From a virus (taxonomy: Duplodnaviria > Caudoviricetes), in IMG/VR virus record IMGVR_UViG_3300025326_000032, positions 1-63,352 of that record: a stretch of DNA of 63,352 bases. The stretch is one strand, 5' to 3'. This document shows positions 3,306 to 60,702 of the stretch, piece after piece; position 1 is the stretch's first letter; the number at the start of each line of letters is the position of its first letter. The translations under genes and the position numbers were made by a program. The notes beneath the pieces are model-generated. The model saw only the letters and a program-made list of their open reading frames with translations, had not been told where the DNA came from and ran no database searches.

Positions 3306-4388
3306 ATGGATGATCAGTTCTGTCAATATTGTCAACAGGGGCCTTTCGAGTCAGTAATGATTCGTAAGATACATGAACAACAGTTCTGTCCTGATGCTCC
3401 AAAGACATCAGAACAAGTATCTGCACAAGCATGGGGAGAAGATCAGCCTAGCGTGTTTCAAGAGCAATTAGGACAATCTGGTTCCAGTATTAATGATGAG
3501 ATTAAAGAAGAGTGGTCTAAACAGACAGGACGAGTCACTAGACTCTTGTTTTATAATCCTGATCCTAACTTCTTAGTCTCATCTAGACTTCAGGCGAAAC
3601 TGGAGCGTATTAATGAAATGCGAAAGCGAGAACCACAGAAGATTTGGTTAGTAGGAGATGCAGGTACAGGAAAGACAAGCCTAGCCTTGCAGTTTGCAGC
3701 TAAGACTAAATCACCCTGTCTCAAGTGTCCTTGTCCTGCTATGACTGAAGTGAGTCAATGGATGGGACGTACTGAGTATCATCCTGAGCGTGGTACTCAT
3801 TATATTCCTAGTCTATTTATTGAAGCTGCAGAGACACCAGGAGCAGTTATCATTCTGAATGACATAACTCGTGTAGAGAATCCTAAAGTGCTGAATCCAC
3901 TTATGGATATAACTGATGAGACTGGCTCTACATGGTCAGATGAATTGGGACGGGAAGTTCGAGTTGCTGATGGTGTGGTCTTTATTGCAACTAGTAATGA
4001 AGGATGGGAGTATACGGGTGCAGATGATCCAGATGCAGCTCTTAAAGAACGGTTTGATGTCATTCATATGCCACTGCCTCCGAAGGCTCAACTGAAAGAA
4101 ATTGTTGCTCGTAAGGTTGGCAATTCACCTGAGATAGATTCTGCTGTAGAATTCTTCTTGCAGTGTTTGTCTAAGGGTATTCGTATGTCTCTTAGACATG
4201 TACTGCGTATGTGTAAGGATATTAAGTATGGTGCTTCTCTAGTAGATGCCGCTGTGCTTAGTGCAATAGGTGATATGGATAAAGACCATCAGCAAGAGGC
4301 ATTACAAATTCTTCAGGTTCAATCATCTAGTGTCTCAGGATTGGCTGAGCTAATTAATATGGATGAGTCATGGGGAGAATGGCAATAA
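3306..4388 (+). CDS. MoxR/CbbQ-like AAA+ ATPase with N-terminal Zn-finger-like motif
   Basis: Walker A GDAGTGKT, variant Walker B IILND, FIATSN, AALKERF; N-terminal C-x2-C...H...C. Confidence 0.85.
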   Translation: MDDQFCQYCQQGPFESVMIRKIHEQQFCPDAPKTSEQVSAQAWGEDQPSVFQEQLGQSGSSINDEIKEEWSKQTGRVTRLLFYNPDPNFLVSSRLQAKLERINEMRKREPQKIWLVGDAGTGKTSLALQFAAKTKSPCLKCPCPAMTEVSQWMGRTEYHPERGTHYIPSLFIEAAETPGAVIILNDITRVENPKVLNPLMDITDETGSTWSDELGREVRVADGVVFIATSNEGWEYTGADDPDAALKERFDVIHMPLPPKAQLKEIVARKVGNSPEIDSAVEFFLQCLSKGIRMSLRHVLRMCKDIKYGASLVDAAVLSAIGDMDKDHQQEALQILQVQSSSVSGLAELINMDESWGEWQ

Positions 4389-4629: not shown

Positions 4630-4835
4630 CTAGCCCAAATATAGAATATGCTTGTTCACTATGCAAGCATAAAGCTGAGGATGATGAACAGATGTTTATT
4701 GTTACCAGTGAACATGTAAAGTATACTGTAGGAACAGATATTAAAGATGCAGTTAAATTAATGATCACAGTTCTTATCTATTGCAGGATTTGTTATCGAT
4801 CATCATCTTATGGGTATTCATATGAGTCTAAGTGA
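4626..4835 (+). CDS. Small Cys-rich hypothetical protein
   Basis: Two CxxC pairs; ATGA overlap. Confidence 0.6.
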   Translation: MTSPNIEYACSLCKHKAEDDEQMFIVTSEHVKYTVGTDIKDAVKLMITVLIYCRICYRSSSYGYSYESK

Positions 4836-6834
4836 ATTCTGGAGAGTTAAGAAATCTTATGACCGTAATGTAGAAATGCGTTATCTTCTTGATGGCTTAC
4901 ATAGTTTCATAACTATGATGGCTGACCAAGGAGATATTAAGGTTATGTGGTCTAGGGATTCAGTTCATATGTCTGGAGCCACTCCAGAGATTAAACTGAG
5001 TTACTTGCCTATTAATAATGCAGAGGCTCCATTTGAAGGTGATAGAGTAGATGCTATAGTAGGATTTGCTGCACATGAGGCTGGTCATAGACTCAGATCT
5101 AAAGATAATATACCTATTAATAATCATACTAATCCTTTTAATACTGGTAATCCTCTGAATCCTCTGAGTATATATCCTGTTCAGCCTATGCCTGATAGTG
5201 TATTTAAGCTTATTTCTAATTTGTTAGAGGATGTCTATATAGATAAGTATATGTATAGATACTCTCCTGTTCTAGTTAAGTATATTAAGTCAGGTAGACA
5301 ATGGGATTTAACTAGACCAGAGTATCAGCAACGTTGGGATGAGTTATGCGATAAGGCTAAGACAGGTCAGCTTGATAAAGTTGATATGCTTAATCTCTGG
5401 ATTCAGTATGAGTTATACGATAAGAATACAGCAGAGATACTAAAAGACTTTCCTCAAGAAGCGTTAGAGAATCTATTAAAGCTTGCAGAGATTACACAGG
5501 ATTATTGTGAACGGGCTGGTCTTGTTGATATAGATAAGCTGTTTACTACTATTTGGGATGAATTAAGCAATTATCCTGATCCAGATCTGGAGGATAAGAG
5601 TCAGCAAGATGAGCGAGAGTCAGAGTTTAGTGATAGTACTCTAAGTGGTACACCAGCTAGTTTCGGTAAGTCTGATTCATGTGAGGATGACACTGATGAT
5701 GAAGATGCTTTATCTGACTCAGATAACGAAAACGAGTCTAGCGAGTCTAGTGATAAGCAAGAATCTGAATTGGGTGCATCAGATGATAAAGGTAAAGAGG
5801 ATAGTGAGCAAGATGAGCTTGGTTTAGATAATGGAGACGAGGAGGAAAAAGAAAAGAATAGTGATAGCAGCGATAGTAAAAATAAGGAGACTGATCCATA
5901 TGAGGACTTACTAACATGTGTGCAGTCTAGTGAGCATGAAATACCGGAGAGTGTCTTAGAAGAATTTAGACAGGCAGTATCTCTTGATCGTGAAGATATA
6001 ACTCAAGACTTAAGGGATGAGCTAACTCAACAGTACCAACTACCTCAGCAAACCCACTCTGGTATTATCATGGAGAAGGCTGCTGAGACTGTAGTATTTC
6101 CTAAACCTGACGAAATGTCTAAACTAGTAAATCAATTATTTGAGTTTAGGCGTAGGCGTCATTCCAGATGGTCTAGAGGTACAGAGGACGGTAGACTATC
6201 TCAGTCTAGGCTACATAGAGCAGCTTACGATACCAATCATATACACGAACGTAAGGAGATTAAGGATAGTCTGAATCTAGGTGTATGCTTACTTGTAGAT
6301 GCTTCTAGTTCTGTGACTAAAAGTTGGCCCATCATAGAGAGAATAGTCGAAGCTCTGGCTTTAGGACTAGAACATAAGAAAGGTATTAAGATATGTGCTA
6401 TTGCTTATCAGTCTGTTTATGATAGGAGTAGTGGAGTTGGCAATGTACAGCTAACTCGTTTATATGAATCTGGTAATACTACTATTGGCAAGCATAAGTC
6501 TGATGGTAATACACCAACTGTTTCTGCATTACTAGCTACTCCTATGATTATGAATCGTTTGTTAGGGCATCCTAAAGATAAATTGATTATTCATGTGACT
6601 GACGGTGCTGCTGGTGATGAAGAAAGTATGAAATGTACTGTTAAAGAGGCTGTAGATATTATTCGTAAGAAGTATGGATTAGATATATACTGTTTTGGTA
6701 TAGGTGGTAGCTCGTACTTTGGTAATAGCGAAAAGTTCAAAATAGATTATAATACTAGTTATACTAATCTAGATACGTATGAGCAACTACCAGAAGCTTT
6801 AAAGAATCTACTCAGAGATATATTGGTAAGATGA
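4810..6834 (+). CDS. vWA-domain protein with N-terminal HExxH domain (CobT-like partner of the AAA+)
   Basis: HEAGH plus NLLED, long acidic linker, MIDAS DASSS..GNTPT..VTDG; start may be 4822. Confidence 0.85.
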   Translation: MGIHMSLSEFWRVKKSYDRNVEMRYLLDGLHSFITMMADQGDIKVMWSRDSVHMSGATPEIKLSYLPINNAEAPFEGDRVDAIVGFAAHEAGHRLRSKDNIPINNHTNPFNTGNPLNPLSIYPVQPMPDSVFKLISNLLEDVYIDKYMYRYSPVLVKYIKSGRQWDLTRPEYQQRWDELCDKAKTGQLDKVDMLNLWIQYELYDKNTAEILKDFPQEALENLLKLAEITQDYCERAGLVDIDKLFTTIWDELSNYPDPDLEDKSQQDERESEFSDSTLSGTPASFGKSDSCEDDTDDEDALSDSDNENESSESSDKQESELGASDDKGKEDSEQDELGLDNGDEEEKEKNSDSSDSKNKETDPYEDLLTCVQSSEHEIPESVLEEFRQAVSLDREDITQDLRDELTQQYQLPQQTHSGIIMEKAAETVVFPKPDEMSKLVNQLFEFRRRRHSRWSRGTEDGRLSQSRLHRAAYDTNHIHERKEIKDSLNLGVCLLVDASSSVTKSWPIIERIVEALALGLEHKKGIKICAIAYQSVYDRSSGVGNVQLTRLYESGNTTIGKHKSDGNTPTVSALLATPMIMNRLLGHPKDKLIIHVTDGAAGDEESMKCTVKEAVDIIRKKYGLDIYCFGIGGSSYFGNSEKFKIDYNTSYTNLDTYEQLPEALKNLLRDILVR

Positions 6835-10146: not shown

Positions 10147-10287
10147 GTGATTAAAGTGTATGGCCCATATGTTAGAGAAGATGGAAGAAAGCATGTAATA
10201 CTTTATGATGGAACTCGACGGACAGAGTGTCATTTTGCAGTAGACATTGTGCAGGTAAAAGAAATGCGGGAGTGCTGGAATAGGTAG
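10132..10287 (+). pseudogene. Truncated HNH homing endonuclease N-terminus
   Basis: KVYGPYVREDGRKHVILYDGTRRT resembles the N-terminus of tRNA-associated phage HNH proteins; HNH core absent. Confidence 0.55.
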
Positions 10288-10350
10288 ACAGGCTCGTCTT
10301 AAAAATGAGTGTCGAAAGACGTAAGGGTTCAAGTCCCTTCTCCCGCACCA
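10266..10350 (+). tRNA. trnL: tRNA-Leu (anticodon TAA)
   Basis: Acceptor GCGGGAG/CTCCCGC, anticodon arm CTCGT-CTTAAAA-ATGAG, long variable arm, GGTTCAAGTCC, encoded CCA. Confidence 0.93.
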
Positions 10351-10353
10351 AAT

Positions 10354-10428
10354 GCTGCTGTAGCTTAATGGTAGAGCAGATGCCTTTTAAGCATCCAGAT
10401 ATAGGTTCGACTCCTATCAGCAGTACCA
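10354..10428 (+). tRNA. trnK: tRNA-Lys (anticodon TTT)
   Basis: Acceptor GCTGCTG/CAGCAGT, anticodon arm GATGC-CTTTTAA-GCATC, GGTTCGACTCC, encoded CCA. Confidence 0.93.
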
Positions 10429-15506: not shown

Positions 15507-15539
15507 TCATCCAGCCATAGCCCGTTCCAGCTAGATAAC

Positions 15540-15579
15540 AGAGACCCAGGGTTTTAGATAGCTCTGGGTCTCTTGTTTT
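15540..15579 (+). terminator. Intrinsic terminator
   Basis: 13-bp stem AGAGACCCAGGGT/GCTCTGGGTCTCT followed by TGTTTT. Confidence 0.8.
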
Positions 15580-15664
15580 GCCCTTTAATCTGATATTAAC
15601 AGTTTTAGATTACTCAGCCTTATCAGTGGATTCAGATTCAGCCGAGGTTTAGGGCGTTCAGATA

Positions 15665-15790
15665 TCAGATTGGGTGCAGATTTAAATTCAGATTTAGAAA
15701 TCTCAGTTAGAATTACCGTTTGTGAATTTTGTGTGAAGATTATAGGCTAACCTGAACACTGAAGCCCTTTAAATAGCTGCACCCAACTGA
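15665..15790. repeat. Long imperfect inverted repeat in non-coding DNA
   Basis: TCAGATTGGGTGCAGATTTAAA (15665-15686) vs TTTAAATAGCTGCACCCAACTGA (15768-15790). Confidence 0.65.
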
Positions 15791-16048
15791 GAAATCTAAC
15801 CCTAATCTCACTACCTAAAAACATACCGAAGATATGATAAGGCGAACATGCGATTACATATTGTCCGTAGGACACTAACTCTGTTTAGAACATATGATTA
15901 TATCTAGATTTCGATATTGTGTACGCGCCTGAGCGCATAGCTTTTATGTTCTTTTTGAAGGCTAACCTCACTACAAAAGAGTCTAACTAGATAGTGTTTA
16001 GAACACCCTTCCGTAAAAAGATTCACGGAATAAACCGTCATTTAGGGA

Positions 16049-17168: not shown

Positions 17169-17588
17169 TTAGGCTATCTCGGCCTTTAGGCGCTTTCTAA
17201 GTCTTAAGGCTTCGACAGGGCTCATATCTTTATTGCCTCTGTAGGCTTGGCTGTAGCGTACAAGGCGTTCAAAGTCAGTCCTATGATTCATAATCAGATT
17301 ATCTAAATCAAATTTAGCATTTAGATAGGCTTCGTGATCTGTAATTGTATCAGCTGTCACTGCATAGGCTTCTGCTTTAACCCAGCGTCTATGTTTATCT
17401 CTTGTTTGGGTATATATCTCAAAACGGACAGCCTGATTTAGGTACGCCCTTGCATACTTGTTTATTCTAATATTGTTCGCTAGAAATCTAAGTATTATTA
17501 CATGAGCGACTTCATCAGGGTCATCTGTATTTTGCATTCTTGCTATTCTGACTAATACACGTTCAATGATATCAGCAAGAATGTTCAT
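17169..17588 (-). CDS. Hypothetical protein, weak resemblance to ECF sigma region 2
   Basis: DDPDEVAH..IL.F.......ARAYL..AVR; coupled to dcd. Confidence 0.5.
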   Translation of the reverse strand: MNILADIIERVLVRIARMQNTDDPDEVAHVIILRFLANNIRINKYARAYLNQAVRFEIYTQTRDKHRRWVKAEAYAVTADTITDHEAYLNAKFDLDNLIMNHRTDFERLVRYSQAYRGNKDMSPVEALRLRKRLKAEIA

Positions 17589-18154
17589 ATACCTTTAGAT
17601 GCTTCTGGCTCCTTTTGGTTCTGATATTTAGAGCCTAATCCTGCATCTCCATATGTACGGTTAACTGGCGTAGACATATACTGAAATGATACTTGGCAGA
17701 TACGAGAATTAGGATATATAGCAATAGGTAGTGGTGACAGATTAGACAATTCTAATGTCAATGTACCTTTGAATCCTGGGTCTATATATCCTGCAGTAGC
17801 ATGTACCAATAATCCAAGTCTTCCTAAGCTTGATCTGCCTTCTATTCTACCTACTATGTTATCTGGTATACTCACGTACTCTAGTGTTGTACCTAGCGCA
17901 AACTGTCCAGGTTTTAGAACAAAATACTCGTCTAGTCCTATATCTATTAATCTAGTTAAATTAGAATCAATATTTTTAGTATCTATGAAACCATTAACTA
18001 CAGAAGTACTATTTCTAAAATTAAAAATCCTAAATTTATTCCCAAGTCTTAAATCCACAGAAGCAGGCTGAACATTATTAATCTCAAAGGGTTTAATCTT
18101 AATTCTTCCTGTATTAATCTCAGCTATAATACTTCTATCACTGAGTAAGCTCAT
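17585..18154 (-). CDS. dcd: dCTP deaminase
   Basis: LLSD, QPASVDLRL, EGRSSLGRLG, TAGYIDPGF.G.LTLE, KYQNQ. Confidence 0.95.
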   Translation of the reverse strand: MSLLSDRSIIAEINTGRIKIKPFEINNVQPASVDLRLGNKFRIFNFRNSTSVVNGFIDTKNIDSNLTRLIDIGLDEYFVLKPGQFALGTTLEYVSIPDNIVGRIEGRSSLGRLGLLVHATAGYIDPGFKGTLTLELSNLSPLPIAIYPNSRICQVSFQYMSTPVNRTYGDAGLGSKYQNQKEPEASKGI

Positions 18155-18351: not shown

Positions 18352-18374
18352 AATTAGATAATAAACTGTGTCTG

Positions 18375-18521
18375 TATAAAATGATAGAGGCTAGACTGTC
18401 GCCAAATCCAGCCTCTATCTCACCCATCCACAGTCTATCGCCTCAACAGATAGACTGTCCCAAGAAGGAGAACACCAATGGCTCACCTATCTAAGCATAA
18501 CATACTTTCTATCTATGTCAA
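18375..18521 (-). promoter_or_regulatory. Minus-strand promoter with structured leader/attenuator for the dcd operon
   Basis: TTGACA (18521-18516)-16 nt-TATGCT with extended TG; 10-bp hairpins at 18430-18458 and 18383-18419, the latter followed by a U-rich run. Confidence 0.55.
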
Positions 18522-18574
18522 GGTTTTTAGATTTCCTCTTGACACATCGGCTATAATATGATAAGAGTATAGAT

Positions 18575-47725: not shown

Positions 47726-49798
47726 GTGGCAACACTACCACATCCTATACCAGAATTAACTCAAGTAGGACGAGAGATATTTGACAGACGTTATCAATGG
47801 CAAGATGAAACACCATCTGGAATGCTGGAGCGTGTAGCAAAGCATATAGCATTAGCTGAGGAACCTGATAAGCGCCCAGAGTATAAAGAACGTTTCTATG
47901 AGCTGATGTCATCACTCAGATTCTTACCGAATAGTCCCACGTTGTTTAATGCTGGTACGGGACAGGGATTATTGAGTGCCTGTTTTACGTTTTATGTGGA
48001 TGACAGTTTAGTGTCTATAATGGAGTGTCATAGGCTTGCTGGCTTGGTTATGAAATATGGTGGTGGTGTAGGTTATGGTCTTAGTCGTGTTAGGCCAGCA
48101 GGTGAACAGATTAAGACTGTTCAAGGTAAAGCTTGCGGGCCTGTTAATCTATTACCTTATTATAATAGCATAGCTAATCTTATAACTCAGGGTGGGAAGC
48201 GTTCAGGTGCCCAGATGGGCATACTATCTATAGATCATCCTGATATTAGAGATTTTATACACTTCAAAGATAAGAATCCAGATAGCCTACACACATTCAA
48301 TATCTCAGTCTCAGTGACTAATGAGTTTATGCGCCGATATAAGACTGGTAATAAAGAGGCTACAGAGTTATTTAGAGAGATTGCTGAGTCAGCATGGACA
48401 ACGGGCGATCCAGGTGTTTGGTTTGTAGATACTATAAATGCGACTAATCCGACACCGTGGTTAGGAAAATTGGAGAGTTGCAATCCTTGCGGAGAGGTAC
48501 AGCTTTATCATGCTGAGGCATGTAACCTAGGTAGTCTTAATTTAGGAAAATACATTATTGATTATGGATCAGAGCCTATCATATTGTGGGATAAGCTAAA
48601 GTCTGATATTAGACTAGCTGTTAGATTACTAGACAATGTAATAGATGTAAATGATTTTCCTGATCCTATAATTACTGAAGCTGTTAATAAGACACGTAAG
48701 ATAGGATTAGGTGTTATGGGATGGGCTGACTTACTTGCTTTGTCCGACATTCCATATGACTCAGATGCAGCTGTTATGCTTGCTGATGAGATTATGGAAT
48801 TTATCTCTAAAGAGGCTGACAGAGCAAGTTACGAGCTAGGTCAAGAGCGAGGTATCGCACCAGCATATGAGCATCCAAATGCTCCAGCTCAGTTAGGATT
48901 TGCAGCTAGAAATACTACTAGGACTTGCATTGCACCAACAGGCTCTATATCGCAACTTGCTGGTTGTTCTTCAGGAATAGAGCCACATTATGAGTTAGAA
49001 TATACCAGAATCATGATGGATAGAGGCCAACCAGTTGAGCTTCATGTTAAAGAGCCTGTTCTAGATATTCTGCAAGAGTACGGTATAAATCTACCTAAAA
49101 CGGCACACGAAATTGCACCCGAATGGCATATAAATCATCAAGCAGCATTCCAACAGCATACTAATTTATCCGTTTCCAAGACGATAAATCTACCTGAAAC
49201 TGCCACAGTTAATGATGTTGAGACTAGCCTTGTTCGCCTTTGGGAGACTGGGTGTAATGGCGGGACGATTTATCGTGATAAGAGCCGTGATACCCAAGTC
49301 TTAGGTGAGAATCGTGGCAAAGTAGAAGATAGACAGAATGAGCGTCGTAGATTGCCTGATGAAAGACAGTCTATAACACATAAATTTAAAGTGGCTGACC
49401 AAGAAGGCTATCTTACTATTGGATTATACGAAGATGGTAGTCCTGGCGAGGTCTTTATTAAGATAGCTAAAGAAGGTTCGACTGTTGCAGGCACTTATGA
49501 TGTAACAGGTATCTTAATGTCTTTGGCTCTTCAATATGGTGTTCCTTTAGAAAGTATTGTTAGTAAACTTACTAATATGCGATTTGAGCCAGCCGGTCTA
49601 ACAGGTAATCCTGCTATTCCTTACGCGATGTCTATACCGGATTATATATCTAGATATCTACATAATAAATTTAGTAATGGGAATGAATTGTCTAATGTAA
49701 CAGGTTTGTTTTGTTCTGATTGTCAGAGTGAGTTAATTGCTCAAGAAGGTTGTTTAAAATGTTCAAGTCCTGTATGTGGATACGTGAGATGCGGTTAG
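47726..49798 (+). CDS. nrdJ: Class II (adenosylcobalamin-dependent) ribonucleotide reductase with C-terminal TSCPD-like domain
   Basis: FLPNSPTL.NAG, LSACF, GGGVG, NPCGE, IAPTGSIS, SKTIN, RRLP.ER.S.THKF, terminal Zn ribbon. Confidence 0.95.
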   Translation: MATLPHPIPELTQVGREIFDRRYQWQDETPSGMLERVAKHIALAEEPDKRPEYKERFYELMSSLRFLPNSPTLFNAGTGQGLLSACFTFYVDDSLVSIMECHRLAGLVMKYGGGVGYGLSRVRPAGEQIKTVQGKACGPVNLLPYYNSIANLITQGGKRSGAQMGILSIDHPDIRDFIHFKDKNPDSLHTFNISVSVTNEFMRRYKTGNKEATELFREIAESAWTTGDPGVWFVDTINATNPTPWLGKLESCNPCGEVQLYHAEACNLGSLNLGKYIIDYGSEPIILWDKLKSDIRLAVRLLDNVIDVNDFPDPIITEAVNKTRKIGLGVMGWADLLALSDIPYDSDAAVMLADEIMEFISKEADRASYELGQERGIAPAYEHPNAPAQLGFAARNTTRTCIAPTGSISQLAGCSSGIEPHYELEYTRIMMDRGQPVELHVKEPVLDILQEYGINLPKTAHEIAPEWHINHQAAFQQHTNLSVSKTINLPETATVNDVETSLVRLWETGCNGGTIYRDKSRDTQVLGENRGKVEDRQNERRRLPDERQSITHKFKVADQEGYLTIGLYEDGSPGEVFIKIAKEGSTVAGTYDVTGILMSLALQYGVPLESIVSKLTNMRFEPAGLTGNPAIPYAMSIPDYISRYLHNKFSNGNELSNVTGLFCSDCQSELIAQEGCLKCSSPVCGYVRCG

Positions 49799-49881
49799 CT
49801 ATTTGCTCAGTCGAAATCTGTACTAGGCCAGTCGTTTTAACTGGACAGAATATAAGATTCACGAAGACTGGTATGTGAGAT

Positions 49882-50055
49882 GTGGCTAAACCTAAATCAG
49901 ACACCGTACAAGAACAAGAATTAAAGACTTTGACGAAACAGGTAATAGATTTACAAGATAGAACAGCTAAGTGGTATGGTGTGTTTTGTGCAGAGACTAA
50001 TGGATTTCTTATTGAGATAAACAGATTAATTAGACAAGTTAATAAGAAGGTTTAA
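49882..50055 (+). CDS. Hypothetical protein (57 aa, not in ORF track)
   Basis: GTG start, open coiled-coil-like frame. Confidence 0.5.
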   Translation: MAKPKSDTVQEQELKTLTKQVIDLQDRTAKWYGVFCAETNGFLIEINRLIRQVNKKV

Positions 50056-50188
50056 TTCTTCTATGCAGGACAGAAGAAAGGAATAGGCTAGATACTTCGT
50101 GGTGGATACTAAGATGAGTAAGGTCTGTTTGGATATGTTGCCGCACCCCCGATAACATATATATATCTGTCCTGCATAGAGTGATTAA
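50052..50188 (+). ncRNA. Candidate structured RNA closed by a long terminal stem
   Basis: Perfect 15-bp IR 50060-50074/50166-50180, extendable to about 23 bp; internal hairpin with C-rich loop. Confidence 0.55.
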
Positions 50189-50191
50189 GCT

Positions 50192-50362
50192 ATGAAAATA
50201 GACTGGCATGATGATAGTCTTTTTCTACCTATAGATATTTGGCAATTGTTATTAGATTGGCTTAGGAAAGGAACAGTAGAATTTCCTATTCGCTGTGCTG
50301 AGTGTGGAAGTAAGACAAAAGGTAACAGAATTATAGGCTACAGGATGGGATGCAATCACTAA
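50192..50362 (+). CDS. Hypothetical protein (56 aa)
   Basis: TAATG-coupled to methyltransferase; CAEC. Confidence 0.5.
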   Translation: MKIDWHDDSLFLPIDIWQLLLDWLRKGTVEFPIRCAECGSKTKGNRIIGYRMGCNH

Positions 50363-51468
50363 TGGCTGATTGGATTAATCCAGATGGTAAAGTTAAACTC
50401 TTGCATGGTGACTGTATGATTAGAATGCAAGAGATACCATCTAATTCTGTAGATGCTATAGTTACCGATCCTCCTTATGGCCTTTGTTTTATGAACAGAG
50501 AATGGGATGATATCAGTAAGATTAAACTGTTTCATCACAAATGGGCAATTGAAGCTCTTAGAGTCTTAAAACCTGGAGGACATTTATTATCTTGCAGTGG
50601 TACTAGGACATATCATCGAATGGTCTGTGCCATAGAGGATGTAGGGTTTGAAATACGTGATGCTATTCTCTGGGTTTATGGTAGCGGCTTCCCAAAATCA
50701 CAAAATATAGCAAAGGCTATAGACAAGAAACTCGGAGTTAAGTCAGAAGTTATAGGTACACAAACTCTACCTGACCATCGTGGCGACAACTATAAACAGG
50801 GCCATAGAGATTATGAATATATAGAGCATGAAGTTACTAGAGCTACAAGTAAGCAGGCTAAAGAGTGGGAGGGTTGGGGAACAGCTTTAAAGCCAGCAGT
50901 AGAACCAGTGTGTCTTGCACGTAAACCGATAGCTGAAAAGACTATAGCTGCTAATGTTATGGTTTATGGAACAGGTGGTTTGAATATAGATGCTAGTCGT
51001 ATCTATAGCTCAGAGGAAGATGCTTATGGACGTTATCCCAGTAATCTATTATTAGATGAAGAGGCTGCGCAAATATTAGACGAAGGTTCTGAGGTTACTA
51101 AATCCTCAAGAGCTAGTCTGACCAGCAAGCCTGGAAAGATATATGGTGGTGGAGATGGCCTGCCTAGTTATACTGGTTTATATGGCTTTAATGATTCAGG
51201 TGGGCCTAGTAGGTTTTTCTTTGTAGCTAAGGCTAGCTCTAGTGAGCGTAAGGGCTCAGAACATCCTACTATAAAACCAGTTACTCTTATGAAATATCTT
51301 GTAAGGCTTATAACTCCTCCTGATGGAACTGTTCTTGATCCTTTTGCTGGCTCTGGTACTACACTAGAGGCTGCTTATCAATTAGGATTCAATGCTATTG
51401 GAATAGAATTAGATATTGAGAATCTAGAGACGATGATTAAGCGTATGCAGCAGGGAGTACTATTATGA
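50362..51468 (+). CDS. Second N6/N4 DNA methyltransferase (beta class)
   Basis: VTDPPY, GSGFPKS, LKPA.EP, HPT.KP, VLDPFAGSGTT; start may be 50350. Confidence 0.92.
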   Translation: MADWINPDGKVKLLHGDCMIRMQEIPSNSVDAIVTDPPYGLCFMNREWDDISKIKLFHHKWAIEALRVLKPGGHLLSCSGTRTYHRMVCAIEDVGFEIRDAILWVYGSGFPKSQNIAKAIDKKLGVKSEVIGTQTLPDHRGDNYKQGHRDYEYIEHEVTRATSKQAKEWEGWGTALKPAVEPVCLARKPIAEKTIAANVMVYGTGGLNIDASRIYSSEEDAYGRYPSNLLLDEEAAQILDEGSEVTKSSRASLTSKPGKIYGGGDGLPSYTGLYGFNDSGGPSRFFFVAKASSSERKGSEHPTIKPVTLMKYLVRLITPPDGTVLDPFAGSGTTLEAAYQLGFNAIGIELDIENLETMIKRMQQGVLL

Positions 51469-51575
51469 CAATTAGCAGAAATCACCCTCATAAACGTTGC
51501 TTCAGATGTCATATTAGAAAGCGTATTTGTAAAGGCTACAACACTTGTTACATGTGTAGGAAAAAGAATGCCTAA
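51465..51575 (+). CDS. 36-aa Cys-rich basic peptide
   Basis: ATGA-coupled; CFRC..C...CYMC. Confidence 0.5.
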   Translation: MTISRNHPHKRCFRCHIRKRICKGYNTCYMCRKKNA

Positions 51576-51711
51576 ATTACCTAGAAATCTAAAAAAGACT
51601 AATAGTACTGAAGTAGTAAAGGCTGCAGACTATCCTCACACATGCCATTTTTCAGGATATCCTAAAGAAAAAACTAGATGTAAATATTGCGGCAAAAGGA
51701 AGGATGAATGA
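51568..51711 (+). CDS. 47-aa Cys-containing peptide
   Basis: Overlap-coupled; CKYCG. Confidence 0.5.
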   Translation: MPKLPRNLKKTNSTEVVKAADYPHTCHFSGYPKEKTRCKYCGKRKDE

Positions 51712-51818
51712 GTTGTACTTTATGTAAGGCAGGGTTTAAATTACCACATGGTCATATATATAGCCTAGAAGAATTTCAAGATATCCTGAAGCGTATTGTA
51801 CAAGAAAATAAGAAGTAA
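51708..51818 (+). CDS. 36-aa peptide
   Basis: ATGA-coupled; SD AAGGAAGG; CTLC..H.H. Confidence 0.5.
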   Translation: MSCTLCKAGFKLPHGHIYSLEEFQDILKRIVQENKK

Positions 51819-51819
51819 A

Positions 51820-51993
51820 ACTTGAGTGTCTTAGAGTGCAGAGAGGCTGCACTTGGGAGTGACAGGAAGTAACCTGTTGCTGCAAGAGCACAGAGAGAAC
51901 AACAAAATAGTCTTCATGGGCGCGAAGTATATAACAGTAACAGCTCCAACTCCAATTAAGGGTGATCCTCTCTGTGCTCTAAGATATTCGAGT
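51820..51993 (+). ncRNA. Candidate structured RNA with 27-bp closing stem
   Basis: 51820-51846 pairs fully with 51967-51993 using 5 G-U pairs on the + strand. Confidence 0.7.
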
Positions 51994-52004
51994 AACTGAC
52001 ATAG

Positions 52005-52033
52005 TTGACAAATATAGGATATTAGTTTAAAAT
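52005..52033 (+). promoter_or_regulatory. Sigma70-type promoter upstream of endolysin
   Basis: TTGACA-17 nt-TAAAAT. Confidence 0.75.
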
Positions 52034-52085
52034 AATGTTCAATGTATGTTACACATCCAGAATAGCTTAAGTGATAGGTAGACTT

Positions 52086-53060
52086 ATGAAGGGTCTTGAT
52101 CTCAGCTTCGCTTGTCCTCCTCTTGACTGGTGGCAACGTCGTCGGTCTGATGGATTTGAGGTCGTGTTCCAGTGCCTGTGGACGGGTGGCTTCGCGGGCA
52201 ACGACGGCATCAAGGCTGCGGCTGAGACGAACCTACGCAATGCCAGGATGACGGGGTTCAGAACGGTGGGCGGGTACGCCAACGCCAGTCCACCGTCTTG
52301 GTGGCCGCTGGATGTCCAAATGCGAGAGATCAGGGCTAACGCCGGTGGCGAGTGGACGATCCTCAAACGAGTCGCCGTCGATCTAGAAATCCCAGGCCTC
52401 ACGCTCGCACGGGCCGAGGAACTGGCAGATGCTCTGAAGCGTGAAGGCAAGAACGTTGAGATAGTAGACATTGGCTACACTGCCCGCTGGTTCTGGGTAG
52501 GTCACATGGGAAACAGCCTTAACCCACGTTGGCTAAGGTTCAAGTTGTGGAACGCTAACTATGACTGGAACCCCGACATCGATTTCGGCGCGGCTCCCTA
52601 CGGGCCGTGGAAAATGACTGACCTTGTGGGCGAGCAGTATCAGGGCACCACGCAACTGGATGGCTATGCCGTTGACCTCAACACCTTCATAGACAGCGCC
52701 TTTGCGCCGTCAGTACCAACACCAGTTCCTACACCAGAGGAGGTTCTCATGGGCAAGATAGCAGATGATTTCGCAGCGCTGGGACGCACCGTCGAGGCTG
52801 AGGTTGAAGCGGCCAAGGCATTGCCAGCACCAATTCCAGGGCCAGTGGGGCCTACAGGCCCAGCAGGCCCAGCGGGCGGCACTGTGCCCGCGCCTTCCGG
52901 AGCGCGCTACGACACGCTGCTCGCAGCGGACGGCCACTTCACCGGCTTCTGTGCGCGCAACGGGATTACAGTAGAGCAGGGCAAGGCGCTGAATCCAAAT
53001 GGCCCGCCATCCGGTAATTGGAACATCGTCCACGCTGGCGAGGTCTACAGGGTAGCCTGA
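52086..53060 (+). CDS. Endolysin: GH25-like muramidase, Pro/Gly linker, LysM-like C-terminus
   Basis: GLDLS, AVDLE, YTA.WFW, LW.ANY, QY......VDLN; C-terminal GIT...KALNP......IVHAGEVYRV. Confidence 0.85.
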   Translation: MKGLDLSFACPPLDWWQRRRSDGFEVVFQCLWTGGFAGNDGIKAAAETNLRNARMTGFRTVGGYANASPPSWWPLDVQMREIRANAGGEWTILKRVAVDLEIPGLTLARAEELADALKREGKNVEIVDIGYTARWFWVGHMGNSLNPRWLRFKLWNANYDWNPDIDFGAAPYGPWKMTDLVGEQYQGTTQLDGYAVDLNTFIDSAFAPSVPTPVPTPEEVLMGKIADDFAALGRTVEAEVEAAKALPAPIPGPVGPTGPAGPAGGTVPAPSGARYDTLLAADGHFTGFCARNGITVEQGKALNPNGPPSGNWNIVHAGEVYRVA

Positions 53061-53171
53061 CATGGAAGCGCAGAGCTGCGCTTGATCCCGTCAGAGGCTG
53101 ACATGAACGGGGGGCATACCAATTCCAGCGCTATGGCCCATGCGGGAAGGGTCACATAAAGCCGGTAGGAG

Positions 53172-53354
53172 ATGACTGTCCCCGATGCGCTTATTGGCTT
53201 CGCCGCGATAGTCATCATGTTCTTGGGAAGCTACTACGTCTTATTCAGCGCCGAAGCGGAGATAAAAAGAAGAAAGGAAAAACTAGAAAGTGACAAAGAG
53301 AGGAGAAGAACAAAAAGAAAATCATTTCTTAAAAATAGACGTATCATTAAATAA
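53172..53354 (+). CDS. Single-TM protein with basic tail
   Basis: SD AGGAG; N-terminal TM. Confidence 0.65.
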   Translation: MTVPDALIGFAAIVIMFLGSYYVLFSAEAEIKRRKEKLESDKERRRTKRKSFLKNRRIIK

Positions 53355-53382
53355 TATAATTAGTTTTATAAGGAAAGGTACA

Positions 53383-53577
53383 ATGACTGAATTATTTAAC
53401 CAGTTAGGCGGACGAAAATTTACACTTGGCATAGGGAACTTTGTTGCTTTGATGCTTACAACAACAGGAACAATAGATGCGGGAACTGAAGTCCAAGTAG
53501 CCAATGCTATCGGTATGGCTATCTCTGTCATTATGATTGGTCTTGTTGATATTGTTAAAGCTACGAAGAGTAAGTAA
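53383..53577 (+). CDS. Two-TM holin candidate
   Basis: SD GAAAGG; GRKF followed by two hydrophobic helices; near endolysin. Confidence 0.6.
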   Translation: MTELFNQLGGRKFTLGIGNFVALMLTTTGTIDAGTEVQVANAIGMAISVIMIGLVDIVKATKSK

Positions 53578-53783
53578 TGTCAAAACAGTATCTGGTTAAT
53601 TCCGATACTAAAGAAATACATGACTTAAACGCACAAGATTCTCGTTGTAATATTCCTACAGCTCGTGAAGATGATAGCAATCTTAAACGTATCTGCGTTA
53701 AGGAATTTATGCTTCTTATACGAGAAGGCTTCGATACCTGTGGCTGGTGTTTCGCGGATGAGTCTGATTTAGAGTCTGTATAA
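53577..53783 (+). CDS. Small metal-binding-like protein
   Basis: YLVN..TKEIH......C....GFD.C.WC. Confidence 0.65.
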   Translation: MSKQYLVNSDTKEIHDLNAQDSRCNIPTAREDDSNLKRICVKEFMLLIREGFDTCGWCFADESDLESV

Positions 53784-53794
53784 CGCTATCTATT

Positions 53795-53938
53795 ATGATA
53801 TTGCGTAAATGGCAGCGTCGAGACAAAAGACGCAAACAGGATAGTCGTATTCGACTGCGTAATCTGCGTAATCATAATGTGCCAATTACTGGTACTAGCA
53901 TTATTCGTCGTAGCAAGCGAGATAACGGCAATAGATAA
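53795..53938 (+). CDS. 47-aa Arg-rich peptide (not in ORF track)
   Basis: MILRKWQRRDKRRKQDSRIRLRNLRNHNVPITGTSIIRRSKRDNGNR; no clear SD. Confidence 0.4.
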   Translation: MILRKWQRRDKRRKQDSRIRLRNLRNHNVPITGTSIIRRSKRDNGNR

Positions 53939-54018
53939 AGAAGCTGAACATGCGGCAATAGGAACTTTCGGGAACTCCCAACAGAATCGGGGGGGCGGGC
54001 GTAGCCCGCAACTTACAT

Positions 54019-54378
54019 ATGTTTGAAACAACAAGGGGTTATGGATACATAGAATTTACACGCTGGATTAAAAGAAGTGTTAATTACAGATGTTCAATTT
54101 GTCTTTGGAGAGCTAAAGGTCATGAACTGAAGTTAGATATAGTTCTTCATCATAAAGATTCTAATCCTTATAATAATAAAGCAACAAATCTTATTGTTGT
54201 ATGTTGTGACTGTCATGATGAATTACATGGTAGAGAAATATCTAGGAGAAGACGAGCAGTTGTAGTCAAACGCCGTCGGACTCAGAGACATGATAAGCAA
54301 GGCTGGCCACTGGTTGATTCGTACTTACATAATACAGCAATAAGATATCGGCTTAAGGAAGCGCGTAAATGTGAGTGA
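54019..54378 (+). CDS. HNH endonuclease
   Basis: CSIC...HHKD.NPYNN...NLIVVC.DCH..LH. Confidence 0.85.
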   Translation: MFETTRGYGYIEFTRWIKRSVNYRCSICLWRAKGHELKLDIVLHHKDSNPYNNKATNLIVVCCDCHDELHGREISRRRRAVVVKRRRTQRHDKQGWPLVDSYLHNTAIRYRLKEARKCE

Positions 54379-54434
54379 GGCGGCGAGAGTGGCAAGAAAG
54401 TCTACTCTAATTCTCTTTTTAGGATCAAATAATT

Positions 54435-54761
54435 ATGAGAGTTTATATTGCAGGCCCATATACTCAGGGTGACGTAGCTGAAAACATCAGACAAGTTATA
54501 TATGCTGCAGAGCAGGTGCGAGAAGCTGGTCATGTTCCTTTTGTTCCTCATTTATATCATTTATGGCATCTGATATCTCCTCAGCTACCAGAATATTGGA
54601 GAAAACTAGATATTGATTGGCTAGTTATATGTCATGCTTTTATCAAACTAGATGGTGATTCCAAGGGAGCTGATTTAGAGGAAGATCTGTGTAGTGAGAT
54701 TAATATTCCTATTTATTATACAGTGAAAGAATTTTTAAATACTGTATTGCTTGACAAGTAA
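54435..54761 (+). CDS. DUF4406/nucleoside deoxyribosyltransferase-like protein
   Basis: VYIAGPYT.G, G..PF.PH, D..WL..C.A...L.G.SKGA..E. Confidence 0.75.
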   Translation: MRVYIAGPYTQGDVAENIRQVIYAAEQVREAGHVPFVPHLYHLWHLISPQLPEYWRKLDIDWLVICHAFIKLDGDSKGADLEEDLCSEINIPIYYTVKEFLNTVLLDK

Positions 54762-54779
54762 TTAGAATTGTGTCATAAT
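54751..54779 (+). promoter_or_regulatory. Sigma70-type promoter
   Basis: TTGACA-17 nt-CATAAT with extended TG; ATG at 54786 may be leaderless. Confidence 0.65.
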
Positions 54780-54785
54780 TATAGT

Positions 54786-55010
54786 ATGAATAGTCTATTA
54801 TCTTGTCAACATCCTAAGTTAGCTTGCAGATGGCAAGTTAAGACTGAGCAGCGTGATGCTGCTTTAGTTTCATGTAAGTCATGTGGCTTCAGTATAGAAA
54901 TTATTGCCAGTAATTGCGATGAGGCTTTAACTGAAGCTAGTATTATTACTGAGTTTAATGCTGCAGCTGATCGTTACAGACGTGGCAAAGTGATAATTGC
55001 CTTAAATTAA
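54786..55010 (+). CDS. Zn-ribbon hypothetical protein
   Basis: CQH...CKSCG. Confidence 0.6.
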   Translation: MNSLLSCQHPKLACRWQVKTEQRDAALVSCKSCGFSIEIIASNCDEALTEASIITEFNAAADRYRRGKVIIALN

Positions 55011-55258
55011 TAAACGAAGTGCAGCTTTCTTAATTGCCTTAGTTCCAATCTTCACTAATGAGATTATGTCAACTTTTAATTGACACCGTAGCATTTTGGG
55101 GATTTAATGCTAAAGGCTATTGACAAGGAATGCATTTTTGCGATAAAATGCTATGGGGTTTAAATGGATTTGTATCTATACAAGTCCGAAAGCACTTTCA
55201 TTACAACCTATGGTTAGTTATAGGTAGCCGATCCCCCATAGTCAAACAAGTTTTGGAA

Positions 55259-55771
55259 ATGCAGAGATTACCGAAGAGGATAGAAAATTTACGGCAGAAG
55301 TCTATGAGGTCGCCTACACTCCGACAACGTTATCTTAAGTATACAGAAGGTTATTTAAGAGGACAGACTGATGCGGAGAGTATATATCGTCCAGATATAT
55401 CTTTTAGGAAAATTGCGGAGCTGATACAGTCACAAGGGAAAGTAACTCTGAGACGTAAGAGTTATCCTATGGTGATTATTAGGCTGTCGCTTAAAGATAC
55501 TGATATATACTACATAAGGCCTATATATGAAAAGATACCGTGGACTAGGTTCCTGTCATGGGCTTCTAACCGTCCAGAATTATATTTTGTTTGGGAGGGA
55601 TACAATGCCCAAATCTTATTGTCTAAATGTAAACAATATTTGCCTGATGATTTAATGTCTGTGATCAAAAAAGCCTTAAGGTGGATTCCGATGAAAGGAG
55701 TAGAGATACCTGAAAATGAAATGAGAGAATTGCTGAATGATAATCCTGCTTATCCAGTATCTAATTTATAA
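55259..55771 (+). CDS. Degenerate LAGLIDADG-like DNA-binding protein
   Basis: GYLRGQTDAES resembles a LAGLIDADG helix; start uncertain. Confidence 0.45.
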   Translation: MQRLPKRIENLRQKSMRSPTLRQRYLKYTEGYLRGQTDAESIYRPDISFRKIAELIQSQGKVTLRRKSYPMVIIRLSLKDTDIYYIRPIYEKIPWTRFLSWASNRPELYFVWEGYNAQILLSKCKQYLPDDLMSVIKKALRWIPMKGVEIPENEMRELLNDNPAYPVSNL

Positions 55772-55783
55772 GGGAGAACTATA

Positions 55784-56560
55784 ATGGCTGATAATGATGC
55801 ATGGGAGTTAGAAGAGCTAACCCCAATAAATAATGCTGAGGTTACAATTGCTGATTCTTATTTTGAAGAAGGTAAATATGGCACACAGTTAACATTAGTA
55901 TGTAATATAGATATACCTATTGATCCTGTAGATATTTCCTTCTCTACTTTTAGTATCTGGTATGGAGTGGGTAAAGGTTGGCAGATTCTAGAGAATGGTG
56001 GGCGTATAGTTAAGCCAGATACTGATCCTGCTAAGCCAGTTAAGATTCACGCTTCGAGTCGCTTAGGTAAGCTTATTGCGCGGGTTATTAAGGACTTGAA
56101 GTTTGATATGCAACCAAGAGGACTTCCGACTGAAGCCAAAGTTTGGAAAGGTCTTAAAATGCATATGCTTCGTGAGCTAGTGCATTATGAAGGTATAGTA
56201 GATGAGGTAAGTGGCGAAGCAAAGACTATTGATTCGAGTATCCTGCTTCCTACAGCTGTTTCAATTGGGCAATTAACTCCACCAACTGTTGCTGGATCAG
56301 TTCCTCAAGCAAGTTATCAACCTACTACTACAGCTAATGAGCCAGTTTCAGCTAATGGTTTAAGTGATACTGATAAGCATATATTAAGTCTTGCTGTTGG
56401 TAAGGCATCATTAGCAGAGGCTAAAGCAGCTATTGTTCGTGATCCTGTTATTGCAAATGATAATGCTGCATCTTCTAGGGTTTTAGAGCATGGCTTACTA
56501 GAACAGTGGATGGCTTCAGGTATTTTACAGTCTGTTGATGGTAGGCTTATAGCAGTGTAG
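55784..56560 (+). CDS. Hypothetical protein, possible ssDNA-binding protein
   Basis: SD AAGGGAG; recombination neighbourhood; function inferred from context only. Confidence 0.6.
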   Translation: MADNDAWELEELTPINNAEVTIADSYFEEGKYGTQLTLVCNIDIPIDPVDISFSTFSIWYGVGKGWQILENGGRIVKPDTDPAKPVKIHASSRLGKLIARVIKDLKFDMQPRGLPTEAKVWKGLKMHMLRELVHYEGIVDEVSGEAKTIDSSILLPTAVSIGQLTPPTVAGSVPQASYQPTTTANEPVSANGLSDTDKHILSLAVGKASLAEAKAAIVRDPVIANDNAASSRVLEHGLLEQWMASGILQSVDGRLIAV

Positions 56561-60235: not shown

Positions 60236-60394
60236 GTGACTAAATGTGTATTTTCTAAAGCATGGGCAAAACTTAAAATTGGTTTAGAGGATAAGACTTC
60301 ATGGGGAAAGACCGAACTCAAAAATCTTATGTTTATATGTTTAGAAAATGCAGCACTAGAAGACGACAATGAAAGGCATGGGAATGATGACTAA
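60236..60394 (+). CDS. Hypothetical protein (52 aa, not in ORF track)
   Basis: GTG with SD AGGAG; KTSWGKTELK. Confidence 0.55.
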   Translation: MTKCVFSKAWAKLKIGLEDKTSWGKTELKNLMFICLENAALEDDNERHGNDD

Positions 60395-60395
60395 T

Positions 60396-60677
60396 TAAAA
60401 CTATTATAGAGTCTACTCAGAACGGTAGATCAGGATGCGCTGTCTGAATATTATGTTTTTCCTCGCTTTCTCCTGTATTTAGGCAGCAATATTACGCTCA
60501 CCGTCTCCTGTGCGCCTGAGCAGTCTAGGTCTTTTGCTGGATACTAGGCTTGACTGATGAGATTACTAATTAAATTCTTATTAGTCAGTAATGGAGGGTC
60601 TAGGAATTGTCCTCCCACAGTTTCTAGCAGCGAAATTAGTAATAGCTGAATTCTGGGTAGACTCTACGATAGTTTTA
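60396..60677 (+). ncRNA. Candidate 282-nt multi-hairpin ncRNA with C/U-rich loops
   Basis: 26/27-bp closing stem (2 G-U), four internal hairpins, 10-bp loop pairing. Confidence 0.72.
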
Positions 60678-60702
60678 TTTAAGCTGAGTTTGGAATGTAA
60701 GA

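What the first reader, a model, noticed from the sequence alone, without database searches (positions are those of the whole stretch)
51820..51993. Stem-closed RNA element 2: 27-bp duplex with an internal competitor strand
Seen: all 27 positions pair, five as G-U, which works only for + strand RNA and argues for RNA-level selection. Internal AGAGCACAGAGAG (51885-51897) is a perfect 13-nt complement of the 3' arm (51968-51980), giving two exclusive folds. Internal helices ACAGG/CCTGT and GTTGCTG/CAGTAAC are present. It ends 11 nt before the endolysin -35 box. Inference: bistable ncRNA or processing switch.
Basis: partly seen in the sequence, partly recalled or inferred. Interest (0 to 1): 0.7.

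Follow-up and report, generated by a model that had tools for sequence, protein, structure and literature searches.

The report
Two-state RNA hairpin before phage lysis gene
A 174-base non-coding stretch just ahead of the lysis gene of an uncultured phage can fold, as sense-strand RNA, into either a long 27-pair rod or a four-armed junction; its only known relative keeps both folds, so it is probably a new processing or control element of the phage messenger RNA, though nothing yet shows that it is transcribed or cut.

Summary
All 27 positions of 51820-51846 pair with 51967-51993 (22 Watson-Crick, 5 G-U). 51885-51897 is a perfect 13-nt complement of 51968-51980. The + strand RNA fold is far beyond chance (z -7.3); the - strand is not (z -2.0).

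With the competitor it makes a second fold, B: a four-way junction that keeps the outer 13 bp. Rod (A) and junction lie within 3 kcal/mol in the window and 0.5 in the only homologue found (L004, another IMG/VR contig). Opening the outer 13 bp tips both to B.

In L004 the 5' domain is 72/78 identical, against 80/131 at four-fold sites of the neighbouring methylase. The 66-nt middle is unalignable and both folds stay 98.8% paired. Two sequences cannot give a covariation test.

There is no Rfam match, paralogue, conserved ORF, terminator or RBS sequestration, and no RNA run. The element starts one base after an upstream stop codon and precedes a putative GH25-like endolysin in both phages.

Best reading: a sense-strand, two-state intercistronic RNA whose rod form is a likely RNase III substrate. 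That a functional RNA-level element is present is fairly well supported; the RNase III mechanism is inferred. Two further stem-closed elements in the window share the architecture but not the switch.

The parts
51708..51818 (+). Upstream 36-aa Cys/His-rich ORF. Its stop codon ends 1 nt before the 5' arm. In L004 the homologous ORF stops inside the arm.
51820..51832 (+). Outer closing stem P1, 5' strand (13 nt). It is common to both folds.
   Evidence: two compensatory changes and one broken pair against L004
51833..51846 (+). Inner 5' arm. In fold A it pairs with 51967-51980 (14 bp, 2 G-U). In fold B it is part of hairpin P2.
   Evidence: invariant in L004
51834..51854 (+). Hairpin P2 of fold B: 8 bp (7 WC and 1 G-U) with a 5-nt purine loop.
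51858..51881 (+). Hairpin P3: 9 bp with a 6-nt loop, present in both folds. The only changes in L004 are 2 loop bases.
51885..51897 (+). Competitor strand: a perfect 13-nt complement of 51968-51980, forming P4 of fold B. L004 has 2 transitions here, and both keep pairing as G-U.
51898..51966 (+). Variable middle, which is the terminal loop of P4 in fold B. It cannot be aligned with L004, and 2 of the 3 natural variants seen in the element lie here.
51967..51980 (+). Inner 3' arm, the pyrimidine-rich hub. It pairs with either the inner 5' arm or the competitor.
51981..51993 (+). Outer closing stem P1, 3' strand. The natural variant 51990 G>A turns a U-G pair into U-A.
52005..52033 (+). Sigma-70-like promoter match (11 of 12) between the element and the lysis gene. 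It is absent in L004.
52086..53060 (+). Putative endolysin, a GC-rich allele. The start was chosen by alignment with L004 and L018.

Best explanation
The element is a functional, sense-strand structured RNA in the untranslated gap between a small upstream ORF and the lysis cassette of a polycistronic phage message.

Four segments can pair in two mutually exclusive ways. The segments are the inner 5' arm, its local partner, the competitor and the 3' hub.
- Fold A is a continuous 27-bp rod plus an extended internal hairpin.
- Fold B keeps only the outer 13 bp and forms a four-way junction (P1-P4) with the variable region as the loop of P4.

Inferred mechanism, not shown:
1. The 27-bp rod is long enough to be cut by the host's RNase III. 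Cutting would separate the upstream message from the lysis-cassette message and release or destabilise the parts, as at phage T7 and lambda RNase III sites.
2. The competitor and the P2 hairpin set how much of the RNA is in the cuttable form.
3. Whenever the outer 13 bp are opened, the RNA falls into fold B and is protected. A ribosome terminating at the stop codon that abuts the 5' arm would open them.

The strict sequence conservation of the 5' domain suggests that it also binds a partner that has not been identified.
For: Shown:
- A 27/27 paired stem with 5 G-U pairs that work on the + strand only.
- + strand z -7.3 against -2.0 for the - strand.
- As single-stranded DNA the signal is much weaker: z -3.6 (+) and -1.6 (-).
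- In 37 other inter-ORF gaps of the window, z never falls below -4.7.
- Nearly all genes lie on the + strand.
- The 5' domain is 72/78 identical to L004, against 80/131 at four-fold sites of the adjacent methylase; Fisher p 3.5e-7. The middle is unalignable.
- Folds A and B are within 3.0 kcal/mol (window) and 0.5 kcal/mol (L004).
- Both folds are 98.8% paired in both sequences. There are 2 compensatory pairs in P1, and all 4 one-sided changes keep pairing.
- Removing the outer 13 bp shifts the balance to B by 3.5 kcal/mol (window) and 7.0 kcal/mol (L004).
- Natural variants in four laid metagenome runs: none in 51820-51899, two in the variable middle, and one (51990 G>A) that converts U-G to U-A.
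- The position directly upstream of the putative endolysin is the same in both phages.
- Two further stem-closed elements in the window, with arms of 23 and 31 nt, also fold better on the + strand.
- Across the three closing stems there are 9 G-U and 1 A-C; one-sided binomial p 0.011.

From the literature (passages of PMC5371410):
- RNase III targets in lambda, T7 and T3 are named.
Against: - There is no transcript evidence at all.
- Only two distinct sequences exist, so covariation is not testable. The shuffle control gives 264/500 (fold A) and 239/500 (fold B).
- One pair changes from G-U to A-C in L004.
- In L004 the - strand also folds well: z -4.85, against -6.14 for the + strand.
- RNase III sites need little sequence conservation, so 92% identity over 78 nt is not explained by that mechanism alone.
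- The host is unknown, so the presence of RNase III is assumed.
- The excess of G-U over A-C could partly reflect strand-biased mutation. GC skew is positive throughout the profiled stretch 48000-56000.
- The window has a strong promoter-like site downstream of the element. The lysis gene there may not depend on read-through.
- The other two stem-closed elements have no competitor, so the switch is not a class feature.
Confidence: 0.4

Rival explanations
1. It is a stable small RNA excised from the message. The 27-bp stem acts like the leader-trailer helices around ribosomal RNAs. Cutting releases an RNA of about 120-150 nt, and its conserved 5' domain (P2, P3 and the junction) is the working part, acting in trans on a protein or RNA partner.
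For: - Sequence-level conservation of the 5' domain (72/78) is higher than a mere processing stem needs.
- The variable region sits as a terminal loop in fold B, which is typical of structured RNAs with a conserved core.
- After the outer stem is removed, the RNA settles into three stable hairpins.
- PMC5371410 (passages) notes that RNase III releases 16S and 23S rRNA.
Against: - No complementary target was found elsewhere in the window.
- There is no Rfam family.
- No RNA data are available.
- Only two phages carry it.
Confidence: 0.2
2. It is a DNA-level element. Four copies of a short motif, two direct and two inverted, serve as binding sites for a regulator, initiator or recombinase. Alternatively, they form a conserved boundary sequence at which gene modules are exchanged.
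For: - The motif occurs three times in full, plus a partial inverted copy that forms a 19-bp palindrome at 51835-51853.
- Homology with L004 breaks exactly at the element's 3' end, and the lysis gene downstream is a different, GC-rich allele.
- A promoter-like site lies 11 nt downstream.
Against: - All differences between motif copies are transitions that keep + strand G-U pairing; there are no transversions.
- The conserved block is 78 nt, far longer than an operator.
- The motif occurs nowhere else in the phage beyond chance.
- L004 has no promoter-like site in the scanned stretch, from about 400 nt before to about 220 nt after its element.
- The single-stranded DNA folds are unremarkable.
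Confidence: 0.15
3. It is a regulatory leader that senses a ligand, a protein or temperature, and so controls expression of the endolysin.
For: - It has two near-isoenergetic folds, a conserved four-way-junction core and a variable peripheral loop.
- It lies directly upstream of the lysis gene in both phages.
Against: - No expression platform is present. There is no terminator-like site.
- The ribosome-binding site of the lysis gene lies outside the element and is not paired with it in extended folds.
- In the window a promoter-like site lies between the element and the gene.
- There is no Rfam match even at E up to 10.
Confidence: 0.1
4. It is a non-functional relic: a hairpin left by a local duplication or by a defunct miniature mobile element, kept only by shared ancestry.
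For: - Only two related phages carry it.
- The inner 5' arm and the competitor look like a direct duplication.
- Relatives such as L005 and L018 lack it.
Against: - The 5' domain is conserved at 92% where neutral sites are at 61%.
- No natural variants occur in the 5' domain.
- There are no extra copies anywhere.
- No target-site duplication is visible.
Confidence: 0.1

Closest known systems
RNase III processing hairpins between genes of phage T7/T3 early and late mRNAs, and the lambda sib site (details recalled; that RNase III targets lambda, T7 and T3 RNAs is stated in passages of PMC5371410)
   Same: - It is an intercistronic, sense-strand double-stranded stem in a phage polycistronic message.
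- The stem is longer than the roughly 22-nt minimum.
- There is no U-tract and no independent promoter.
   Different: - There is no sequence relation.
- The stem encloses a 120-nt interior rather than a small loop.
- It has a built-in competitor that gives a second fold.
- The 5' half is strongly conserved in sequence.
- Cleavage has not been tested and the host is unknown.
Leader-trailer helices flanking 16S and 23S rRNA in bacterial precursors (recalled; that RNase III releases mature 16S and 23S rRNA is stated in PMC5371410 passages)
   Same: A long helix formed by sequences on either side of an enclosed RNA would release that RNA when cut.
   Different: The enclosed RNA here is about 120 nt, half of it variable, and has no known function.
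hok/sok-type mRNAs with fold-back inhibition, in which a 5'-3' closing pairing alternates with internal pairings (recalled from general knowledge; not checked in a paper here)
   Same: An RNA closed by pairing of its two ends has an internal alternative partner, so that loss of the end pairing triggers refolding.
   Different: There is no conserved toxin-like ORF. The 48-codon frame in the window stops after 17 codons in L004, and its changes are non-synonymous. No antisense RNA is evident.
Phage T4 lysozyme (gene e) early-transcript hairpin that blocks translation until late transcripts start inside it (recalled from general knowledge)
   Same: RNA structure ahead of a phage lysis enzyme gene could tie its expression to the transcript form.
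   Different: Here the ribosome-binding site is not inside the structure.

Membership tests
Any Rfam 15 family (riboswitches, ribozymes, 6S, Y-like, phage motifs) | Covariance-model match | tested here: not met
   At gathering scores the whole window gives only 2 tRNAs. There are 0 matches at E up to 10 in 51700-52100.
RNase III processing site | Continuous double-stranded RNA of about 22 bp or more | tested here: met
   27 of 27 positions pair. The 22-nt minimum is taken from PMC5371410 passages.
RNase III processing site | Lies in a transcribed sense-strand message | tested here: inconclusive
   Nearly all genes are on the + strand and the element fills an inter-ORF gap. No RNA run holds the stretch.
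RNase III processing site | Cleaved by RNase III, and the host encodes the enzyme | not testable with these tools
   The host is unknown and there is no end-mapping data.
Riboswitch or attenuator leader | Expression platform: a terminator, or sequestration of the start site, coupled to the alternative folds | tested here: not met
   No terminator-like site is found. The start region of the lysis gene folds apart from the element.
Intrinsic terminator | GC-rich hairpin followed by a run of U | tested here: not met
   0 terminator-like sites in 49500-53500. No T run follows 51993.
Miniature inverted-repeat mobile element | Several copies, with terminal inverted repeats flanked by a target-site duplication | tested here: not met
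   - Only one copy exists in the record.
- Three seed scans of public collections found only the orthologous locus plus chance matches.
- No flanking duplication is visible.
tRNA / tmRNA | ARAGORN or Rfam tRNA match | tested here: not met
   The only tRNAs are at 10266-10428.
Small protein gene or type I toxin mRNA | Conserved open reading frame | tested here: not met
   The frame from 51853 (48 aa) stops after 17 codons in L004. The L004 frame from 1305 is closed by a stop in the window.
Independent small-RNA gene | Own promoter and terminator | tested here: not met
   No promoter-like site lies upstream of 51820 in the window, nor in the scanned stretch upstream of the L004 element. No terminator is found.

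The most novel reading that the evidence does not exclude
The element is a translation-gated RNA timer for lysis.
- While ribosomes still terminate at the stop codon abutting the 5' arm, the outer stem is kept open. The RNA then sits in the protected four-way-junction fold.
- When upstream translation falls, the 27-bp rod forms and is cut by RNase III. That changes the fate of the lysis-cassette message.

This would be a self-contained bistable switch that couples ribosome traffic to nuclease access, with no known family.
Probability: 0.1. Interest if true: 0.7.

Novelty: new variant of a known kind. Interest (0 to 1): 0.42.

Why it matters
Long intercistronic hairpins that steer processing of phage messages are textbook for T7 and lambda. 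They are barely explored in uncultured phages.

This one adds a conserved built-in competitor, so that two folds of nearly equal energy exist. It also sits at the entry to the lysis cassette and starts at an upstream stop codon. If the two folds differ in nuclease access or partner binding, it would be a compact, protein-independent device linking translation or time to lysis-gene expression. It would also be a candidate new RNA family.

If not, it is still a clear case of nucleotide-level purifying selection on non-coding phage sequence.

The practical limits are severe: two sequences, no host and no RNA data.

Tried and rejected
**Homologue hunting**
- blastn of 51400-52100 against the phage collection found no match.
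- The 18-mer from the 3' arm had 0 hits in viral contigs.
- The 18-mer and 22-mer seeds from the 5' domain found only the L004 contig.
- The 19-mer in metagenome contigs gave 5 stretches. Two are L004-type (L014, L015). Three are unrelated chance matches inside coding sequence (L012, L013, L016).
- The same 19-mer in genome contigs gave 1 chance match (L017).
- Protein-anchored scans:
  - The methylase gave 7 loci, of which only L004 carries the element.
  - The endolysin gave L004 and L018, and L018 has no element.
  - The reductase, the DUF4406 protein and the 276-aa protein gave no relatives.
- tblastn of the L004 endolysin against phages found nothing. The best methylase match was 48%, in Mycobacterium phages.

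**Paralogues and targets**
- Covariance model R1 of the 5' domain, run over the window and 8 loci, matched the two inputs. The other 5 matches were weak, the best at E 0.033.
- There is no sequence similarity among the three stem-closed elements.
- No repeated 8-12-mers occur beyond chance.

**Expression**
- No RNA holder was listed among the 22 runs returned.

**Other**
- My gap scan chose spurious short ORFs over the three elements. It therefore serves only as a background of 37 other gaps.
- Small ORFs next to the element have no homologues in L005.
- A PDB sequence search with the endolysin profile found no relevant match.
- The structure model was of modest quality (pLDDT 59.7). Its fold search gave only weak GH25 muramidase and endolysin matches, the best at E 3.1e-3.
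- Literature searches gave general RNase III papers only. I did not find, and did not specifically search for, a description of this element. Two searches failed on term syntax.

Full report
**What the window is.** The window is a whole IMG/VR virus record of 63,352 bases, estimated 96% complete. Nearly all ORFs run on the + strand. Pfam finds a gpA-type large terminase and a Mu-type portal. Around the finding it finds a ribonucleotide reductase and an N6/N4 DNA methylase. The phage collection holds no near relative at DNA level. The best methylase match there is 48% identical.

**The observation.**
- 51820-51846 pairs with 51967-51993 at all 27 positions, with 22 Watson-Crick and 5 G-U pairs.
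- As + strand RNA, 51815-51998 folds to -71.1 kcal/mol with z -7.34; 0 of 200 shuffles fold as well.
- The - strand gives -50.7 kcal/mol with z -2.03; 7 of 200 shuffles fold as well.
- As single-stranded DNA both strands are unremarkable, with z -3.6 and -1.6.
- 37 other inter-ORF gaps of the window have z no lower than -4.7. That scan skipped the three stem-closed elements because spurious short ORFs covered them.
- The competitor 51885-51897 is a perfect complement of 51968-51980.
- ACAGG/CCTGT belongs to a 9-bp hairpin, 51858-51881.
- The proposed GTTGCTG/CAGTAAC helix appears in no predicted fold, and its partner lies in a non-conserved stretch.
- A promoter-like site (11 of 12 match) lies at 52005-52033.

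**The second fold.** With it the four segments can exchange partners.
- Fold A is the 27-bp rod plus an extended hairpin in which 51848-51855 pairs with 51883-51890.
- Fold B keeps the outer 13 bp and forms P2, P3 and P4 (competitor with hub) around a four-way junction.
- Enforced ensemble energies in the window are A -73.1 and B -70.1 kcal/mol.
- In L004 they are A -60.0 and B -60.5 kcal/mol, and B is the MFE.
- Trimming the outer 13 bp makes B better by 3.5 kcal/mol in the window and 7.0 in L004.

**Relatives.** The seed and protein-anchored scans listed under Tried and rejected found one homologue, L004 (IMGVR_UViG_3300025289_000701, 4,418 bases). L015 is the same sequence, and L014 is identical within the element. 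L005, L018 and the other methylase loci lack the element.

Conservation between the window and L004:
- The methylase is 288/303 identical in protein but only 80/131 identical at four-fold sites.
- The element's 5' domain, 51822-51899, is 72/78 identical; Fisher p 3.5e-7 against the four-fold sites.
- The 3' arm is 22/27 identical.
- The stretch between the 5' domain and the 3' arm cannot be aligned.

The six changes in the 5' domain are:
- two in the P3 loop;
- two in P1, one giving U-G and one forming part of the G-U to A-C change;
- two in the competitor, both keeping pairing as G-U.

Pairing across the two sequences:
- P1 has two double-sided changes that keep pairing (A-U to G-C and C-G to A-U) and one broken pair.
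- Both folds keep 85 of 86 pair cells.
- With two sequences the shuffle controls are not significant, at 264/500 and 239/500. Covariation is therefore compatible with both folds but proves neither.
- In L004 the - strand also folds fairly well, with z -4.85 against -6.14 for the + strand.

**Natural variation.** Contigs of four metagenome runs were laid on 51300-52500. They show three variants inside the element.
- 51903 C>T and 51954 A>G both lie in the variable middle.
- 51990 G>A turns the U-G pair at stem position 4 into U-A, the same state as in L004.
- None lies in 51820-51899.
- No run on record as RNA holds the stretch.

**Context.**
- The element begins one base after the stop codon of a 36-aa Cys/His-rich ORF that L004 conserves. 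In L004 that ORF's stop lies inside the 5' arm.
- Downstream in both phages is a homologous protein, 49% identical overall.
- The L004 copy matches PHROG 3084, endolysin, at E 9.3e-9. The window copy matches nothing in Pfam or PHROGs.
- A modest model (pLDDT 59.7) has weak GH25 muramidase and phage endolysin matches, the best at E 3.1e-3.
- Two small ORFs follow the gene. By my own reading they are membrane-spanning. 'Putative endolysin' is therefore reasonable but not firm.
- In L004 the gene starts 28 nt after the element, and no promoter-like site is found in the scanned stretch 900-1700. Expression there must come from read-through.
- In the window the gene is a 55-66% GC allele in a roughly 38% GC phage. 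It is closer to a copy in a GC-rich UViG (L018) and has its own promoter-like site.
- Homology with L004 breaks at the element's 3' end.
- The start region of the gene is not paired with the element in extended folds. No terminator-like site is present.

**What it is not.**
- No Rfam family matches.
- It is not a tRNA.
- It has no conserved ORF.
- It has no paralogue and no target in the window.
- There are no extra copies, as a mobile element would have.

**A class of elements?** The window holds two more stem-closed intergenic elements, 50052-50188 and 60392-60681.
- Their arms are 23 nt (20 WC, 2 G-U, 1 C-U) and 31 nt (27 WC, 2 G-U, 1 A-C, 1 U-U).
- Both fold better on the + strand: z -5.9 against -3.4, and z -7.0 against -3.8.
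- Across the three closing stems there are 9 G-U and 1 A-C; one-sided binomial p 0.011. The constant positive GC skew across the profiled stretch means that strand-biased mutation may contribute.
- In all three, an upstream ORF's stop codon lies at or just before the first base of the 5' arm. For the third element that ORF is only a 52-codon frame.
- They share no sequence with the finding and have no competitor.

**Reading.**
- Shown: the structure, its strand asymmetry, the two near-isoenergetic folds, nucleotide-level purifying selection on the 5' domain and the arms, and the conserved position ahead of the lysis gene.
- Inferred: that it acts as RNA in the sense transcript, that the 27-bp rod is an RNase III substrate, and that opening the outer stem by a terminating ribosome gates the switch.
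- The stem exceeds the 22-nt minimum target size given in PMC5371410. That paper also names RNase III targets in lambda, T7 and T3 (passages only).
- Comparisons with the T7 R-sites, lambda sib, the hok fold-back mRNA and the T4 gene e hairpin are recalled from general knowledge and were not checked in papers here.
- The strong sequence conservation is not explained by RNase III alone. It leaves room for a trans-acting product or an unknown partner.

**Verdict.** This is a real, non-random, conserved two-state RNA-type element with no known family. It is a new variant of the known kind 'intercistronic processing or regulatory hairpin of a phage message'. The mechanism remains inferred, and the evidence base is two sequences.

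Noticed in passing
window 50052-50188: A second stem-closed intergenic element with 23-nt arms (20 WC, 2 G-U, 1 C-U). The + strand z is -5.9 and the - strand z is -3.4. It starts at the stop codon of the upstream 57-aa ORF and ends 3 nt before the next ATG, so its 3' arm covers that gene's ribosome-binding region.
   Followed up: partly
window 60392-60681: A third and larger stem-closed element with 31-nt arms (27 WC, 2 G-U, 1 A-C, 1 U-U) and a multi-hairpin interior. The + strand z is -7.0 and the - strand z is -3.8. A 52-codon frame (60236-60394) stops at its first bases. It has no sequence similarity to the other two elements.
   Followed up: partly
window 52086-53060: The putative endolysin is 55-66% GC in a roughly 38% GC phage. 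Its closest relative found is in a GC-rich UViG (L018). The homologous gene in L004 is low-GC. This looks like a recent allele replacement that brought its own sigma-70-like promoter (52005-52033), with the breakpoint at the 3' end of the RNA element.
   Followed up: partly
window 15507-15903 and 18352-18574: Two gaps fold better on the - strand (z -4.5 and -4.7). They flank the only - strand gene block, 17169-18154.
   Followed up: no
window 51465-51818: Three tiny overlapping ORFs (36, 47 and 36 aa) rich in Cys/His pairs lie between the methylase and the element. They are conserved in order in L004 but diverged, at 53-65% DNA identity. A natural 3-nt insertion variant occurs at 51695.
   Followed up: no
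window 10266-10428: Adjacent tRNA-Leu (anticodon taa) and tRNA-Lys (anticodon ttt) genes match A/T-ending codons of a low-GC phage.
   Followed up: no
window 3306-4388 and 4810-6834: An AAA_5 ATPase is followed by a 674-aa protein with a weak C-terminal VWA match. The pair is reminiscent of CobS/CobT-like pairs in other phages; that resemblance is recalled and was not tested.
   Followed up: no
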